NCBI GenBank assembly: GCA_964534625.1
Contig: CAZHRF010000017.1
Coordinates: 1 to 58,217, forward strand
Length of the DNA: 58,217 nt
Direction of reading: 5' to 3'
Origin: an uncultured archaeon
Lineage (GTDB): Archaea > Asgardarchaeota > Heimdallarchaeia > Heimdallarchaeales > Heimdallarchaeaceae
Shown here: positions 1 to 3,840 of the stretch, piece after piece
Layout: each line of letters starts with the position of its first letter
Position numbering within the stretch: position 1 is the first letter of the stretch
The notes under the pieces: model-generated
Database searches by the model: none
What the model saw: only the letters and a program-made list of their open reading frames with translations
Told to the model about the DNA's origin: nothing
Made by a program: the position numbers and the translations under genes

Positions 1-97
1 CCACTCGTCGATAATTCCATTGATGAACAATTTTTCTTCCGTACGGACGTTGATTTCCTCTACAATGCGCTTTACGAATGTTATACGGGTAGCCCAT
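1..97 (-). CDS. 5' fragment of a basic protein running off the window edge, possibly ribosomal protein eL15
   Basis: ATG at 97 reads MGYPYNIRKAHCRGNQRPYGRKIVHQWNYRRV without a stop. Loose resemblance to eL15 N-termini (IREAW-like, WxYR). Only 32 codons are visible. Confidence 0.3.
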   Translation of the reverse strand, partial: MGYPYNIRKAHCRGNQRPYGRKIVHQWNYRRV

Positions 98-261
98 GGT
101 CAAAAAGAGAATTTATTTTATATTAGTAAGTATACTTGTTTTGATTTTAAGATTTTAAAATTTAAAATATGATACATAGAAAAAAAATTTAAATGGCGAA
201 AAAAGAATTATTCTTAATTACAAATTCCAACACTTTAGACAAAAAAAGAAAGGTAGAAAAA

Positions 262-786
262 ATGAACAACTATCAATACACTTTCAAGATACTTTTGCTT
301 GGCGATGGTGCAGTGGGGAAAACAAGTCTAGTTCAGCGATTTATTCATGATAAATTTAGTTCTGGTTATCTTATGACAATAGGAATGGAACCTTACTCGC
401 GTTTTGAGACAATCGACGGTACAAAAGTCTGCTTACAGCTTTGGGATATAGCTGGACAAGATCGCTTTCAATCTATGAGACATATATTCTATAAGGGAAG
501 TCTTGGTGCTCTAGTGACGTATGATATTACTAGACGACAAAGTTTTGAAAACCTCAAGAGATGGATTAAAGAAGCTAAAAATGAATCTCCACGAATTATG
601 CTTATAATGGTTGGAAACAAGAATGATTTAGAAGATATGAGAGATGTTTCTACCGAAGAAGGTCAAGAATTTGCAGATAAAATGGGTTGTATAGACTTTA
701 TTGAGACATCCGCAAAAACTGGTGAGAATGTATCAGAAGCTTTTCTTAATCTAGGTAAATCTATTTACGAGAGTGTAAGTAAGTAA
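262..786 (+). CDS. Rab-like small GTPase (Ras superfamily)
   Basis: G1 GDGAVGKTS, G3 WDIAGQDRF, G4 GNKND, G5 ETSAK. Likely start is ATG 262 (ORF track starts at 193). No C-terminal Cys. Confidence 0.92.
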   Translation: MNNYQYTFKILLLGDGAVGKTSLVQRFIHDKFSSGYLMTIGMEPYSRFETIDGTKVCLQLWDIAGQDRFQSMRHIFYKGSLGALVTYDITRRQSFENLKRWIKEAKNESPRIMLIMVGNKNDLEDMRDVSTEEGQEFADKMGCIDFIETSAKTGENVSEAFLNLGKSIYESVSK

Positions 787-849
787 ATAAAGGCTTTATT
801 GACTTTAAACATTACCTTAAATCTTAATTTTTTATCTTCTTGTTTAAGG

Positions 850-1332
850 TTAATCTAGTTTTTTTCCTAATTGTTTTCTTATTCTGCCTGAACTTATTTT
901 AATGCCTCTCTTATCATAAACAAAAGGTACAACTAGTACTAATAATTGATCTAAACCTTTCATTGCTCGTAATTTGTTGATTTCAACTCCTGTTGAATAT
1001 GTTTCTTCTGTTACCACGATACCTTCTGCTGTTTTATCTGTTAAAGCTGGTCCATATCGGTCTTTTATTGCCATAAGTTCATAATCTGTGGATCCTCTTT
1101 GTTCAAGAAACCGCCTAACATTTTCTTTGCGTTGTTCAAAGTTCTGCATTAAAAAGAGAAATTTATCTCGAGGTCGCATTCTTCTTGCAAAATCATCCGT
1201 AGTAATACCAACGCGAACTCGTTTTGAGAGAGACATGGCGGCTTCTAATAAAGCTCTATGACCATCATGGATGTGATCGAATGTTCCACCTAATAGTACT
1301 TCGTTTAACCAAGGCAAAGAAGACACCTGCAC
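850..1332 (-). CDS. coaD: Archaeal-type phosphopantetheine adenylyltransferase
   Basis: GGTFDHIHDGH (HxGH nucleotidyltransferase), D.YGP, VTEET and KISSGRIR motifs. Confidence 0.85.
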   Translation of the reverse strand: MQVSSLPWLNEVLLGGTFDHIHDGHRALLEAAMSLSKRVRVGITTDDFARRMRPRDKFLFLMQNFEQRKENVRRFLEQRGSTDYELMAIKDRYGPALTDKTAEGIVVTEETYSTGVEINKLRAMKGLDQLLVLVVPFVYDKRGIKISSGRIRKQLGKKLD

Positions 1333-1438
1333 TAAAACTTAACAGATACACTATAAACTTTTTTCTTGCTTTCACAGAAAAAAATTTTTAGTGCAAAATT
1401 AAAATTACTAATTATCTCAAATCATGCAACTAGCAATG

Positions 1439-1565
1439 TTTCCAGGTTCGGGATGGGTCTGGGTATTACCCTGACACTATGGCCGCGTCGAAACGCAGCG
1501 AAGGGTTCTTCCCAAGTCCTCTCGGAACTCAGTACAAAACCAAACGTAGTCAGACTTGACTTTCC
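1439..1565 (-). rRNA. rrf: 5S rRNA gene, circularly permuted (3' half, UUCG linker, 5' half)
   Basis: Minus strand 1488-1439 = ACGCGGCCAUAGUGUCAGGGUAAUACCCAGACCCAUCCCGAACCUGGAAA, the 5S 5' half with the conserved CCGAAC loop C. Minus strand 1565-1493 = GGAAAGUCAAGUCUGAC...GUAC...GGGAA...UUCGCUGCGU, the 5S 3' half. Helix I GCUGCGU/ACGCGGC is closed by UUCG at 1492-1489. Confidence 0.88.
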
Positions 1566-1719
1566 CGATCATCAGGACGCATCCAGATGATTTCTGTCAT
1601 TGCTGGATAATCAGCAGTAGAGTGGTTTTTTTTTCTTTTAAAAATGTTACTTTCTTGAAGAATATTGTCATTAATAAACTTAATAGGGCTTGCTAGACCA
1701 CAATTAAAATGAATTAATA

Positions 1720-1820
1720 TGGTGCCCCGAGACGGATTTGAACCGCCGCCTAGGGATTACTGTATGAATATAAAATAATCATTCCACAGTCCCCAATTCT
1801 AGCCACTATACTATCGGGGC
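1720..1820 (-). tRNA. tRNA-His(GUG) with a 26-nt canonical 37/38 intron (1783-1758) and encoded CCA
   Basis: Acceptor stem GCCCCGA/UCGGGGC, T arm GGCGG-UUCAAAU-CCGUC, anticodon GTG at 1787-1785, BHB formed by CUGU/ACAG with GGA and UAA bulges, 3' end ACCA. Confidence 0.95.
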
Positions 1821-1939: not shown

Positions 1940-2428
1940 ATGACCAGTTCTAGTAAAGGTAAAATAATAATACAGCTGCACAATTTTGCATCGGTCAATC
2001 ATTGTAGTGAGTTTATGAAAATAGCTCTTGGTTTGGGTGCACGAGAAATTGTTTTTTCAAAAGGTGTAGGGTCAGCAGCAAGTTCTGGTATTCCCATTGC
2101 TCAAAAGATGGCATTCGCTGCAAAAGCCAACTTCCTTGTTTTGCGTTCAATTCAAGATACAATTGAACTGCTTCACCCTGATGAAGTTTTTCTTTTTATA
2201 AAAGAGACTTATGCAAATGAACTGTTTGATCCTCAACAAGTGGTAAAATCTTATCAGAGTGGTAAAACGATTTTATTAGTTTTTGGAGGTTCAAGTACTG
2301 GTCTTTCAAGAAAAGACTTAGATCTAGGGCGATCGGTATTTATAAAAAACACAAAAGATATTGGATGTTTGGGGCAAGTAACTTTATCATTATATTTTTT
2401 ACGTGAAGCATTAGATCACATGCAATAA
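1940..2428 (+). CDS. DUF2122-like (SPOUT-fold / 'RecB-family nuclease' annotated) archaeal protein
   Basis: LHN...GSAASSGIP and LVFGG...GLSRKDL motifs resemble this archaeal family. Likely start is ATG 1940. Confidence 0.6.
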   Translation: MTSSSKGKIIIQLHNFASVNHCSEFMKIALGLGAREIVFSKGVGSAASSGIPIAQKMAFAAKANFLVLRSIQDTIELLHPDEVFLFIKETYANELFDPQQVVKSYQSGKTILLVFGGSSTGLSRKDLDLGRSVFIKNTKDIGCLGQVTLSLYFLREALDHMQ

Positions 2429-2437
2429 TATTAATTC

Positions 2438-2968
2438 TCATATATCCAGTCCTTCATCATCTATAATCATCATGCGAACAAGATTATTGAAAGCTTTCTC
2501 TGTATTAGTCCCTTCTTTAGCGGATGTAAATATATATTCTGCATTCCCATGGTACTCTACCAACTGTTGCATATCTTTTTCATCTACTTCAATGTTTTGT
2601 AAATCTATCTTATTAGCGATAAATACAATAGGTTTTTTGCCAACCACATCCACGAAAGAGTCTACCCAAGAAAACAATTCTTGCTGGGTTTTGTAATCTG
2701 TTGAATCACATATTGCCAAAGCTCCTGATGCAGCGAAGTAATATTTACTTCTTACAGCTTTGAAAACCGTTTGCCCTCCTATATCCCAAATCGACAAAGT
2801 AACTTGATAATCCATATAGTCTATCTCTTTTTTCATTATTGTTGTTCCTAATGTTATCTGATATACTGGACTGAAATACCCAGTTACAAAGCGCCTTACT
2901 GTAGACGTCTTTCCCACACCTGGAGGACCGATTAACATTACTTTCTTTGTTGCTTTCATCAAGTACAT
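2438..2968 (-). CDS. Rab-like small GTPase
   Basis: G1 GPPGVGKTS, G3 WDIGGQ, G4 NKID, G5 TSAK. Confidence 0.9.
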   Translation of the reverse strand: MYLMKATKKVMLIGPPGVGKTSTVRRFVTGYFSPVYQITLGTTIMKKEIDYMDYQVTLSIWDIGGQTVFKAVRSKYYFAASGALAICDSTDYKTQQELFSWVDSFVDVVGKKPIVFIANKIDLQNIEVDEKDMQQLVEYHGNAEYIFTSAKEGTNTEKAFNNLVRMMIIDDEGLDI

Positions 2969-2994
2969 CCTTTCCGATTATTTGTAGTTTATAT

Positions 2995-3840
2995 TTAATA
3001 AAAACTTATTGAGGCATAACCGACAACTTGTGATTTGTTTCCCGATACTTCTCCTGAAGTTGAGTAACCAAGTATTTTAACTTGATTCCTACCTGATTTT
3101 TCAGCTGCAATCATAGTAGCTAATATTGGCCCATATCCGCACATGGTTACTTTTAGCTGATCTTTAATTTCATACATTTTTTTACCACTCATCTGTTCAA
3201 TAGCTTGTAATACTTTCTCATCTTTTTGTTTTGCCTGTTCATGTGGTTCGTAGTGGGTGAAATCCGAGCTTGCTATAACAATGGCATTCTTATCTTTCAG
3301 TACTTTAGCTAATGTTTCTCCAAGAGATTTTGCGTGCTCATAGTTTTGTCTTGTAATAACTATTGGAACAAAATCAAAGTTGTTTTTGAGAATATACTGG
3401 AGAAACGGTAATTGTACTTCTACCGAATGTTCTTTTTCGTGAGATTCATCGTTTTTTTCAATTATATGATTATCTGCAACAAGCTGATCAGTTATTTCAT
3501 GATTAATTGACACATCTCCAAAAGGAGTCTCCCATTGGGTTACATTCTTTGGAACCGCTATTATTGGACCATATCCTCTATGATTCGGCCCAATAACAAT
3601 TATGGTGTCTGGTTCGTCATATTTACTTAGCTCTAGATAACTCATAGCTGCAATTGGGCCAGAATAAATATATCCTGCGTGAGGAACGACCAAAAAAGGT
3701 GTTTTTCCTTGGATTTTTTTAACTTCTCCTGGCATTTTTTTTGGTCCATACTCTGATAAGAAACTATTTTTAATCAAATCTCTTAATCTTTCTTTGTGTT
3801 TTGGATAAAAATGTCCTGCCACTGCTGCTATTCGTTTCAT
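2995..3840 (-). CDS. amrB: MEMO1 family protein (AmmeMemoRadiSam system protein B)
   Basis: AVAGHFYP, PHAGYIYSG, GPNH, EHSVEVQLPFLQ, SSDFTHY, CGYGP and VVGYA motifs. Confidence 0.92.
   Translation of the reverse strand: MKRIAAVAGHFYPKHKERLRDLIKNSFLSEYGPKKMPGEVKKIQGKTPFLVVPHAGYIYSGPIAAMSYLELSKYDEPDTIIVIGPNHRGYGPIIAVPKNVTQWETPFGDVSINHEITDQLVADNHIIEKNDESHEKEHSVEVQLPFLQYILKNNFDFVPIVITRQNYEHAKSLGETLAKVLKDKNAIVIASSDFTHYEPHEQAKQKDEKVLQAIEQMSGKKMYEIKDQLKVTMCGYGPILATMIAAEKSGRNQVKILGYSTSGEVSGNKSQVVGYASISFY

What the first reader, a model, noticed from the sequence alone, without database searches (positions are those of the whole stretch)
1425..1625. Structured leader and trailer around the permuted 5S: candidate circularisation or processing signal
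Seen: the roughly 60-nt leader (1625-1566) is GC-richer than the surrounding spacer. Its AGCAAUG (1604-1598) is complementary to CAUUGCU (1438-1432) directly after the 5' half. Alternatively, leader UGAUG-A-UCGGG-AAA can pair with CCUGG-AAA-CAUUG, placing the two AAA stretches on opposite strands either side of a short helix, a relaxed bulge-helix-bulge/loop geometry. The leader can also fold AUCCAG/CUGGAU and CCUGA/UCGGG hairpins and carries CUGA and UGAUGA box C/D-like words. Established: archaeal EndA cuts BHB/BHL motifs and RtcB ligates them, and the neighbouring intron-containing tRNA implies this machinery is present. Inference: the permuted 5S may be matured by tRNA-splicing enzymes. 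The motif is not a canonical 3-4-3 BHB.
Basis: partly seen in the sequence, partly recalled or inferred. Interest (0 to 1): 0.7.

Follow-up and report, generated by a model that had tools for sequence, protein, structure and literature searches.

The report
Splice-type flanks of permuted 5S
The sequences before and after this archaeon's back-to-front 5S ribosomal RNA gene form a conserved stem carrying tRNA-intron-type cut signals, here doubled around a small hairpin, so the transcript is most likely cut and rejoined into a 121-base ring with a normal 5S sequence.

Summary
The structured leader and trailer are partly as described. AGCAAUG (1604-1598) pairs with CAUUGCU (1438-1432). Alone this helix is not significant: 479 of 5000 shuffled trailers match it. 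Across 31 loci of the same family, however, 10 of its 11 pairs show compensatory changes. The real leader hairpin is AUCAUCUGGA/UCCUGAUGAU (1591-1582 / 1577-1568), which also covaries.

The permuted 5S occurs in 79 of 83 genomes of the class (Heimdall-group Asgard archaea) and in many other families of the phylum. Outside this family the flanks form a textbook helix, 3-nt bulge, 4-bp helix, 3-nt bulge. Cutting after the second bulge base and ligating restores the canonical ...CGG-AA-GUYAAG in two different registers.

In this family the leader carries two acceptor sites around the hairpin, which reads as a roughly 31-nt intron sitting at the junction. The genome encodes two EndA-family subunits and RtcB.

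This scan has noted permuted Asgard 5S genes with such motifs many times on other DNA. I found no publication describing them.

The parts
1636..1644 (-). A/T-rich TATA-like box (UUUUUAAAA), about 30 nt upstream of the stem; the likely promoter of the 5S unit
   Evidence: Read from the sequence. An aligned A-rich box (AAAGATT-AAAAAA) lies at the same distance in family loci. Inference only; no promoter tool for archaea was available.
1598..1604 (-). P1a: leader strand of the processing stem (AGCAAUG)
   Evidence: Pairs with 1438-1432. 10 of 11 stem pairs are compensatory across 31 family loci. It is present in the minimum-free-energy fold.
1594..1597 (-). Distal acceptor strand ACAG. CAG pairs with CUG 1445-1443, and A1597 faces G1442.
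   Evidence: CAG is invariant in 30 of 31 family loci and 98.9% paired. It directly abuts P1, as the single acceptor does in other families. It is paired in the minimum-free-energy fold.
1591..1593 (-). Distal bulge AAA; predicted cut between 1592 and 1591
   Evidence: Geometry from the strict scan. The cut position follows the established rule of cleavage after the second bulge base. Inferred.
1568..1591 (-). P2 hairpin AUCAUCUGGA-UGCG-UCCUGAUGAU (one U.U mismatch)
   Evidence: The 8 core pairs are 97.2% paired and 4 of them are compensatory. It is in the minimum-free-energy fold. The sequence occurs only at the two 5S loci of the genome.
1564..1567 (-). Proximal acceptor strand CGGG, pairing with CCUG 1446-1443
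   Evidence: 99.2% paired. Position 2 alternates G/A opposite the invariant U (16 G.U, 15 A-U).
1561..1563 (-). Proximal bulge AAA; predicted final cut between 1562 and 1561, so the mature RNA starts at A1561
   Evidence: The third base is always A, while the second varies in one relative (AUA in G012). The product restores CUGG-AA-GUCAAG.
1441..1561 (-). Predicted mature permuted 5S (121 nt): 3' part, helix I closed by a UUCG loop (1492-1489), then 5' part
   Evidence: Consensus fold has 37 pairs, 28 of them compensatory. Own model R1 scores 125.5 bits here. Rfam 5S scores only 24 bits, below its cut-off.
1443..1446 (-). CCUG: donor-side strand of the central helix. It is shared by the distal and proximal acceptors, and in the mature fold it is part of helix III.
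1439..1442 (-). Trailer-side bulge G-AAA. Predicted cuts lie between 1441 and 1440 (proximal register) and between 1440 and 1439 (distal register).
   Evidence: In relatives the retained bases are invariant, while the base just before the stem varies A/U/G.
1432..1438 (-). P1b: trailer strand of the processing stem (CAUUGCU)

Best explanation
The locus is one short transcription unit: leader, 5S 3' part, UUCG-capped helix I, 5S 5' part, trailer.

Leader and trailer pair (P1). This places the end of the 5' part (CCUG-GAA-A) against acceptor strands in the leader, forming bulge-helix-bulge-type substrates for the splicing endonuclease EndA. RtcB then joins the 5' part to the 3' part. The product is a 121-nt covalently closed 5S (window 1561 to 1441) with a normal helix III (CUGG-AA-GUC).

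In this family the signal is doubled:
- a distal acceptor (A)CAG-AAA lies right after P1;
- a proximal acceptor CGGG-AAA lies right before the 5S;
- the hairpin P2 separates them.

The likeliest route has two steps. First, the distal motif, with P1 as flanking helix, is cut and ligated into a ring that still carries about 31 nt (A1591 to A1562). In that ring P2 directly flanks a second motif (CCUG/CGGG, bulges GAA and AAA), so the insert is removed like an ordinary archaeal intron. A one-step cut at the proximal site gives the same product.

Status of the steps:
- Shown: the pairings, their covariation, the geometry in relatives, and the presence of the enzymes.
- Inferred: cleavage, ligation, circularity and the order of steps.
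For: 1. The gene really is permuted. The own genome has no canonical 5S and two permuted loci. The consensus fold has 37 pairs, 28 compensatory.

2. P1 and P2 covary in 31 family loci, and the proximal helix is 99% paired.

3. The permuted gene is found in 79 of 83 genomes of the class. In a 151-genome sample of the phylum it is found in 81, while the canonical Rfam 5S passes its cut-off in 49, mostly in other families.

4. In 44 loci, 42 of them outside this family, a stem of 5-15 bp directly abuts a 4-nt acceptor, with 3-nt bulges. Cognate leader/trailer stems have a median of 11 bp. Trailers from other families give a median of 4 bp, 95th percentile 7.

5. Cutting after the second bulge base gives ...CGG-AA-GUYAAG in both registers. 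When the acceptor is 2 nt from GUYAAG, the donor helix is the last 4 nt before AA. When it is 3 nt away, the donor helix is shifted by one.

6. The joined 31-mer occurs contiguously in ordinary archaeal 5S genes.

7. The nested design recurs independently in another family: GGUGGCAACA-CGUG-AGA-[hairpin]-CGUG-AGA-GUUAAG in G093 and G103. A species of the same genus as G093 (G113) lacks the 30-nt insert.

8. For the window, the in-silico ring intermediate has P2 (10 bp, one mismatch) flush against both the bulge and CGGG.

9. Enzymes: an EndA catalytic-type subunit and a divergent second subunit, plus RtcB.

10. Precedent: the permuted SRP RNA of Thermoproteus is cut at a leader/trailer BHB by a heterotetrameric EndA and circularised (PMC4731332).
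Against: - No RNA run was listed for this sequence, so no junction, end or circularity was observed here.
- The window's distal central helix has only 3 Watson-Crick pairs plus an A.G mismatch, and P1 is only 7 bp.
- In the linear precursor the proximal site lies at a three-way junction, not in a plain bulge-helix-bulge.
- No helix flanks the motif on the 5S side in any lineage, so all these motifs are of the 'hBH + loop' kind.
- The central helix competes with helix III of the 5S fold.
- One copy in a sister genus (G004/G007, copy 1) lacks the distal CAG, so the two-step route cannot be universal.
- The central helices show no double compensatory change, because CCUG is fixed by the 5S.
Confidence: 0.62

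Rival explanations
1. One-step maturation. EndA uses only the proximal site (CGGG-AA|A with CCUG-GA|A). The distal CAG, P1 and P2 merely hold the precursor in shape, for example by keeping CCUG away from helix III until cleavage. The product is the same 121-nt ring.
For: - Copy 1 of G004/G007 lacks the distal CAG. It has a 5-bp helix GUGGU/ACYAC flush with the proximal acceptor.
- Heteromeric EndA enzymes accept relaxed motifs (PMC4731332).
Against: - The distal CAG is invariant in 30 of 31 loci and sits exactly where the single acceptor sits in other families.
- In most family members no helix abuts the proximal acceptor in the linear precursor.
Confidence: 0.2
2. Linear permuted 5S. The stem only guides endonucleolytic trimming, by EndA or another nuclease. 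The ends are not ligated, and the 5S works as a linear molecule with its ends in the helix III bulge, like permuted mitochondrial 5S rRNAs.
For: - Permuted linear organellar 5S rRNAs exist (PMC4267664).
- Helix I is closed by a tight UUCG cap, so the fold could hold together without ligation.
Against: - The spacing of acceptor and donor in two registers always reconstitutes exactly the canonical bulge length. Ligation needs this; trimming does not.
- EndA products (2',3'-cyclic phosphate and 5'-OH) are RtcB substrates, and RtcB is present.
- Both known archaeal precedents circularise.
Confidence: 0.1
3. The hairpin P2 and CGGG-AAA are kept in the mature RNA as an expansion of helix III. Only the distal site is cut and ligated.
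For: - P2 is as conserved as the 5S itself within the family and covaries.
- The distal motif is the more canonical one.
Against: - The proximal acceptor keeps exact complementarity to CCUG and the AAA spacing that yields a canonical junction.
- The analogous insert is present or absent between close relatives in another family.
- The insert would sit in the conserved AA bulge.
Confidence: 0.05
4. The leader is a box C/D-like or L7Ae-binding element, or the complementarity is chance.
For: UGAUGA and CUGA words occur in this copy. The 7-bp helix alone is not significant.
Against: The words are absent from the paralog and from relatives. The stem covaries strongly.
Confidence: 0.02

Closest known systems
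Permuted, circularised SRP RNA of Thermoproteus tenax / T. uzoniensis (Plagens et al. 2015, PMC4731332)
   Same: - A permuted structural RNA gene.
- Leader and trailer fold into a bulge-helix-bulge at the new ends.
- A heteromeric splicing endonuclease cuts and RtcB-type ligation closes the ring.
- The gene was missed by standard models.
   Different: - The RNA here is 5S rRNA.
- The trait spans most of an Asgard class and many other families, rather than a few species.
- In this family the signal is doubled around a hairpin.
- No RNA or enzyme data exist for this locus.
Circularly permuted tRNA genes (Cyanidioschyzon merolae, Soma et al. 2007; some Thermoproteales). Cited from my own knowledge and as cited in PMC4267664.
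   Same: The 3' half is encoded before the 5' half. The ends form a BHB, and a circular intermediate is made by the splicing machinery.
   Different: tRNA circles are reopened at the acceptor ends by RNase P and tRNase Z. Here helix I is sealed by a 4-nt loop with no spacer, so reopening is unlikely.
BHB motifs in archaeal 16S/23S processing stems with circular pre-rRNA (PMC8339473, PMC12918454, PMC7758197)
   Same: A leader/trailer processing stem carries a BHB. EndA cuts, and ligation gives circular rRNA species.
   Different: Those genes are not permuted, and circularisation is not needed to build the sequence. These papers state that 5S is not processed this way.
Permuted mitochondrial 5S rRNAs (Valach et al. 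2014, PMC4267664)
   Same: 5S with a permuted order of halves and a closing loop at helix I.
   Different: They are organellar and linear, with no BHB and no splicing-enzyme involvement described.
Archaeal BHB introns in tRNA, for example the tRNA-His intron at 1723-1820 of this window
   Same: The 1591-1562 segment has the build of such an intron once the ring is closed: 4-bp helix, two 3-nt bulges, and an internal hairpin flush with both.
   Different: In the DNA it lies in the leader, at the permutation point. It becomes an internal intron only after a first ligation.

Membership tests
Canonical hBHBh' splicing motif (3-4-3) | Central helix of exactly 4 base pairs | tested here: inconclusive
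   The proximal CGGG/CCUG gives 4 pairs including one G.U. The distal ACAG/CUGG gives 3 pairs plus an A.G mismatch in the window, and 4 pairs (UCAG/CUGA) in many relatives.
Canonical hBHBh' splicing motif (3-4-3) | Two 3-nt bulges on opposite strands, each 3' of its central-helix strand | tested here: met
   The bulges are AAA (1593-1591 or 1563-1561) and AAA/GAA (1442-1439), in the right polarity.
Canonical hBHBh' splicing motif (3-4-3) | Outer helix h directly flanking the motif on the discarded side | tested here: met
   The distal site has P1 (7 bp in the window, 11-12 bp in relatives) flush with the acceptor. The proximal site meets this only in the modelled ring, where P2 is flush.
Canonical hBHBh' splicing motif (3-4-3) | Outer helix h' on the retained (mature RNA) side | tested here: not met
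   GUYAAG does not pair with the bases 5' of CCUG in any lineage. The motif is therefore of the relaxed hBH/BHL kind.
Relaxed BHB/BHL substrate (a 4-bp helix flanked by at least one 3-nt bulge; definition in PMC4731332) | A 4-bp helix with at least one 3-nt bulge next to a helix | tested here: met
   definition read.
Relaxed BHB/BHL substrate | Actual cleavage by the cognate endonuclease | not testable with these tools
   This needs an in vitro assay or RNA end mapping.
Permuted RNA genes matured by splicing-type circularisation | The halves are in swapped order and the native ends are joined by a loop | tested here: met
Permuted RNA genes matured by splicing-type circularisation | The predicted ligation restores the canonical sequence | tested here: met
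   The product CCUGGAAGUCAAG matches ordinary archaeal 5S genes over 31 nt.
Permuted RNA genes matured by splicing-type circularisation | Junction-spanning RNA reads or a circular product | not testable with these tools
   No RNA holder was listed. Earlier notes of this scan report such reads for relatives, but I did not check them.
Heteromeric (alpha-beta) archaeal EndA | Two different EndA-family subunits, one catalytic and one structural | tested here: inconclusive
   Two ORFs of 183 and 191 aa each carry both EndA domains and are 21% identical to each other. The first is closest to the solved crenarchaeal chains 3p1z_B, 3ajv_B and 2zyz_B. By eye, the second lacks a His at the expected place. 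The catalytic residues were not formally aligned.
Box C/D sRNA / L7Ae K-turn element | Conserved C (RUGAUGA) and D (CUGA) boxes | tested here: not met
   The words are present only in this copy. The paralog reads CCAGAUGCUC and relatives read CCAGAUGGUC.

The most novel reading that the evidence does not exclude
In this family a core ribosomal RNA is built by two successive rounds of tRNA-type splicing. The first cut-and-join closes a permuted 5S transcript into a ring. That act converts a leader segment (1591-1562) into a true bulge-helix-bulge intron, which a second round removes. This would be a 'topologically activated' intron: one that exists only after circularisation. It appears to have been gained independently in two Asgard families.
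Probability: 0.35. Interest if true: 0.88.

Novelty: new variant of a known kind. Interest (0 to 1): 0.78.

Why it matters
- 5S rRNA is universal, and the literature I read treats it as the one archaeal rRNA not matured through circular forms (PMC12918454). [quoted passage not shown]
- It explains why 5S genes 'could not be predicted' in closed Heimdallarchaeum genomes (PMC8813620).
- It gives annotation pipelines a concrete model to add.
- The doubled signal offers a natural system for studying how EndA chooses between competing sites, and how introns arise at splice junctions.

Tried and rejected
- RNA evidence: no RNA holder was listed for window:1400-1660, so read laying could not be used.
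- I scanned metagenome contigs for the predicted joined 31-mer. This gave 15 hits, all ordinary unpermuted archaeal 5S genes on kilobase-scale contigs. None carried the helix I cap together with the junction.
- I scanned species genomes with a degenerate helix-I-cap pattern. It was too loose: most hits were chance matches in bacteria. Only two hits, titled Candidatus Heimdallarchaeota, were confirmed as permuted 5S loci.
- I rejected box C/D and L7Ae because the words are not conserved.
- I considered the leader as a relic of a 5' half, because Rfam aligned GGAUGCGUCC... to 5S positions 1-24. I did not pursue this: that stretch is the covarying P2 hairpin.
- I looked for P2 as a repeated mobile element. 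The sequence occurs only at the two 5S loci of this genome.
- ARAGORN found no tRNA in the window, but Rfam finds the intron-bearing tRNA.

Full report
**What is at the coordinates**

All coordinates are read on the minus strand. The locus runs in this order:
- an A/T-rich box, about 1644-1636
- AGCAAUG, 1604-1598
- A-CAG, 1597-1594
- AAA, 1593-1591
- the hairpin AUCAUCUGGA-UGCG-UCCUGAUGAU, 1591-1568
- CGGG, 1567-1564
- AAA, 1563-1561
- the 5S 3' part, starting GUCAAG at 1560
- helix I, GCUGCGU-UUCG-ACGCGGC, 1499-1482
- the 5S 5' part, ending CCUGGA at 1446-1441
- AA, 1440-1439
- CAUUGCU, 1438-1432

The leader has 43% G+C against 20-28% in the spacers.

Rfam at its gathering threshold sees only the tRNA at 1723-1820. 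In E-value mode it gives a 24-bit sub-threshold 5S match. The whole assembly (120 contigs, 89.8% complete) has no canonical 5S. It has two permuted loci: this one and C3:64852-65082.

**Is the leader/trailer pairing real?**

Taken alone, the 7-bp helix is unremarkable. 479 of 5000 shuffled trailers give one as long.

The paralog settles the question. It has CCCAAUAGGGA before the conserved CAGAAAUCAUCUGG and UUCCUGUUGGG after CCUGGAA, so the sequence differs but the pairing is the same.

I aligned 31 loci of the family (alignment A2) and counted pairs for named structures.

| Helix | Pairs | Cells paired | Pairs with compensatory changes |
|---|---|---|---|
| P1 stem | 11 | 91.5% | 10 |
| P2 hairpin | 8 | 97.2% | 4 |
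| CRGG/CCUG (R = G or A) | 4 | 99.2% | 0; only change is G.U (16) to A-U (15) |

None of 500 shuffles reached the observed values, and sliding the partner by one to three columns dropped pairing to 26-46%.

UGAUG is simply the 3' strand of P2. The box C/D words are private to this copy.

**How far the arrangement reaches**

- A covariance model of the permuted core (A1 and R1; 37 pairs, 28 compensatory) finds full-length matches in 79 of 83 genomes of the class, in all seven families.
- In an even sample of 151 genomes of the phylum it matches 81. Rfam's canonical 5S passes its cut-off in 49 of the same 151, concentrated in other families: f11 had a match in 26 of 26 genomes and f17 in 17 of 19.
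- Two loci fetched by pattern carry titles naming Candidatus Heimdallarchaeota and score 127-128 bits with R1.
- Wu et al. 2022 wrote that 5S genes "could not be predicted" in the closed Heimdallarchaeum genomes (PMC8813620). The two single-contig genomes of this family each hold two permuted copies.

**The motif in other families**

Outside the window's family the flanks are textbook.

| Family | Leader | Trailer |
|---|---|---|
| f8 | GGUAGUAUCG-CGUG-AAA-GUUAAG | CACG-GAA-CGAUACUACC |
| f6 | GAAAUCCAUCG-CCGG-AA-GUUAAG | CCGG-AAA-CGAUGGAUUUC |
| f4 | CCGCCGUGA-CCGC-AA-GUCAAG | GCGG-AAA-UCACGGCGG |

A strict scan required the stem to be flush with a 4-nt acceptor and both bulges to be 3 nt. 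It found stems of 5-15 bp in 44 loci.

Cognate stems have a median of 11 bp. Leaders tested against trailers from other families give a median of 4 bp, with the 95th percentile at 7 and the 99th at 9 (n = 86 cognate and 6026 non-cognate).

The established cleavage rule for archaeal BHB motifs is a cut after the second bulge base. The neighbouring tRNA-His intron is consistent with it: GGGGA/UCCCU, CUGU/ACAG, bulges GG|A and UA|A, and AUGA/UCAU.

Applying that rule gives ...CGG-AA-GUYAAG in both registers:
- When the acceptor lies 2 nt before GUYAAG, the donor helix is the last four bases before AA.
- When the acceptor lies 3 nt before GUYAAG, the donor helix is shifted one base upstream.

One family (f3) consistently gives AUA instead of AA. 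This correlation is what ligation at those exact positions predicts. For the window, the joined 31-mer occurs contiguously in ordinary archaeal 5S genes.

**The window's family: a doubled signal**

Here the stem is not flush with the acceptor next to the 5S. A strict motif exists only with a distal acceptor directly after P1:
- window: AGCAAUG-ACAG-AAA with CUGG-AAA-CAUUGCU
- most relatives: GCCUAGUAAGG-UCAG-ANA with CUGA-AAN-CCUUNCUAGG

After the distal site come P2 and a second, proximal acceptor CRGG-AAA. The distal CAG is invariant in 30 of 31 loci. The minimum-free-energy fold of the window transcript forms P1, CAG/CUG and P2 (z = -2.3).

The same design arose separately in family f18. 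G093 and G103 read GGUGGCAACA-CGUG-AGA-[hairpin]-CGUG-AGA-GUUAAG. G113, of the same genus as G093, reads GGUGGCAACA-CGUG-AAA-GUUAAG, so it lacks the 30-nt insert.

I then modelled a first cut-and-join at the distal site:
- In the window this puts P2 (10 bp, one U.U) flush against a GAA bulge on one side and CGGG on the other.
- That arrangement is an ordinary BHB intron of 31 nt (A1591 to A1562).
- Its removal gives CCUGGA-AGUCAAG.
- In relatives the modelled intron is 29-33 nt, with geometry ranging from perfect to two mismatches.
- One copy in a sister genus (G004/G007) lacks the distal CAG. It has a 5-bp helix GUGGU/ACYAC flush with the proximal acceptor, so a one-step route is possible there.

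**Enzymes**

The genome encodes:
- a 183-aa EndA subunit, closest to solved crenarchaeal EndA chains;
- a 191-aa divergent EndA-family protein, 21% identical to the first;
- RtcB.

Plagens et al. describe heterotetrameric EndA as the most permissive type. They show it cutting a leader/trailer BHB of a permuted SRP RNA that is then circularised (PMC4731332).

**Verdict**

- The interpretation, maturation by the tRNA-splicing enzymes, is supported by comparative evidence. I refine it to a nested pair of BHB-type sites, equivalent to an intron at the permutation junction.
- The predicted product is a 121-nt ring, 1561 to 1441.
- Cleavage, ligation, circularity and the order of steps are inferred. 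No RNA data could be obtained.
- Earlier notes of this scan describe permuted Asgard 5S genes with BHB flanks in many other genomes. Some report a roughly 30-base intron and environmental RNA containing the joined form. I could not check those RNA claims.
- I found no paper describing a permuted archaeal 5S.

Noticed in passing
L094 (G049, family f5), 5' part of the permuted 5S: An insertion of about 30 nt lies inside the 5S 5' part: ...CAUUCCGAA[AGAUAUGAAGGAAUUUCUUCAUUCCGGGAA]CCCGGAAACAGGAUCC. It is flanked by a repeated UUCCG. This may be an intron at a different position from the one in the window's family.
   Followed up: no
L105 (G093), L113 (G103) and L106 (G113), family f18: A 29-30-nt hairpin plus a duplicated CGUG-AG is present at the 5S junction in G093 and G103 but absent in G113, which is in the same genus as G093. 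This design is independent of, and parallel to, the one in the window's family.
   Followed up: partly
window 1723-1820 (-): tRNA-His (anticodon GUG) has a 26-nt intron at 37/38 in a textbook hBHBh' motif: GGGGA/UCCCU, CUGU/ACAG, bulges GG|A and UA|A, and AUGA/UCAU. ARAGORN reports no tRNA here, but Rfam does.
   Followed up: partly
L041 (G032, f3) and L098 (G077, f7): Permuted 5S genes occur as tandem copies, each with its own compensating leader/trailer stem. A related locus (L081, G034) pairs a copy-1-type leader with a copy-2-type trailer, probably because the assembly collapsed the repeat.
   Followed up: no
L043-L045 (G033, G037, G035; f4): The permuted 5S lies directly downstream of what looks like the 3' end of a 23S rRNA gene. 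In this family it is therefore probably co-transcribed with the large rRNA.
   Followed up: no
L133 (G197, f14): The loop capping helix I carries an extra hairpin of about 30 nt. The size of the cap varies between lineages (4 nt here, longer in f24), which argues against a conserved reopening site.
   Followed up: no
L040 (G001, second copy): This is a degenerate second copy: the donor strand is mutated to CCUA and there are several core changes (92 bits against 131 for the other copy). It is probably a decaying paralog.
   Followed up: no
window 1-900 and 2400-3000: Small Ras/Rab-like GTPase genes flank the locus on both sides, in keeping with an Asgard origin.
   Followed up: no
family f3 loci (L041, L080, L082-L087): The predicted joined sequence has a 3-nt AUA bulge in helix III instead of the usual AA, and this is consistent across four genera.
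   Followed up: no
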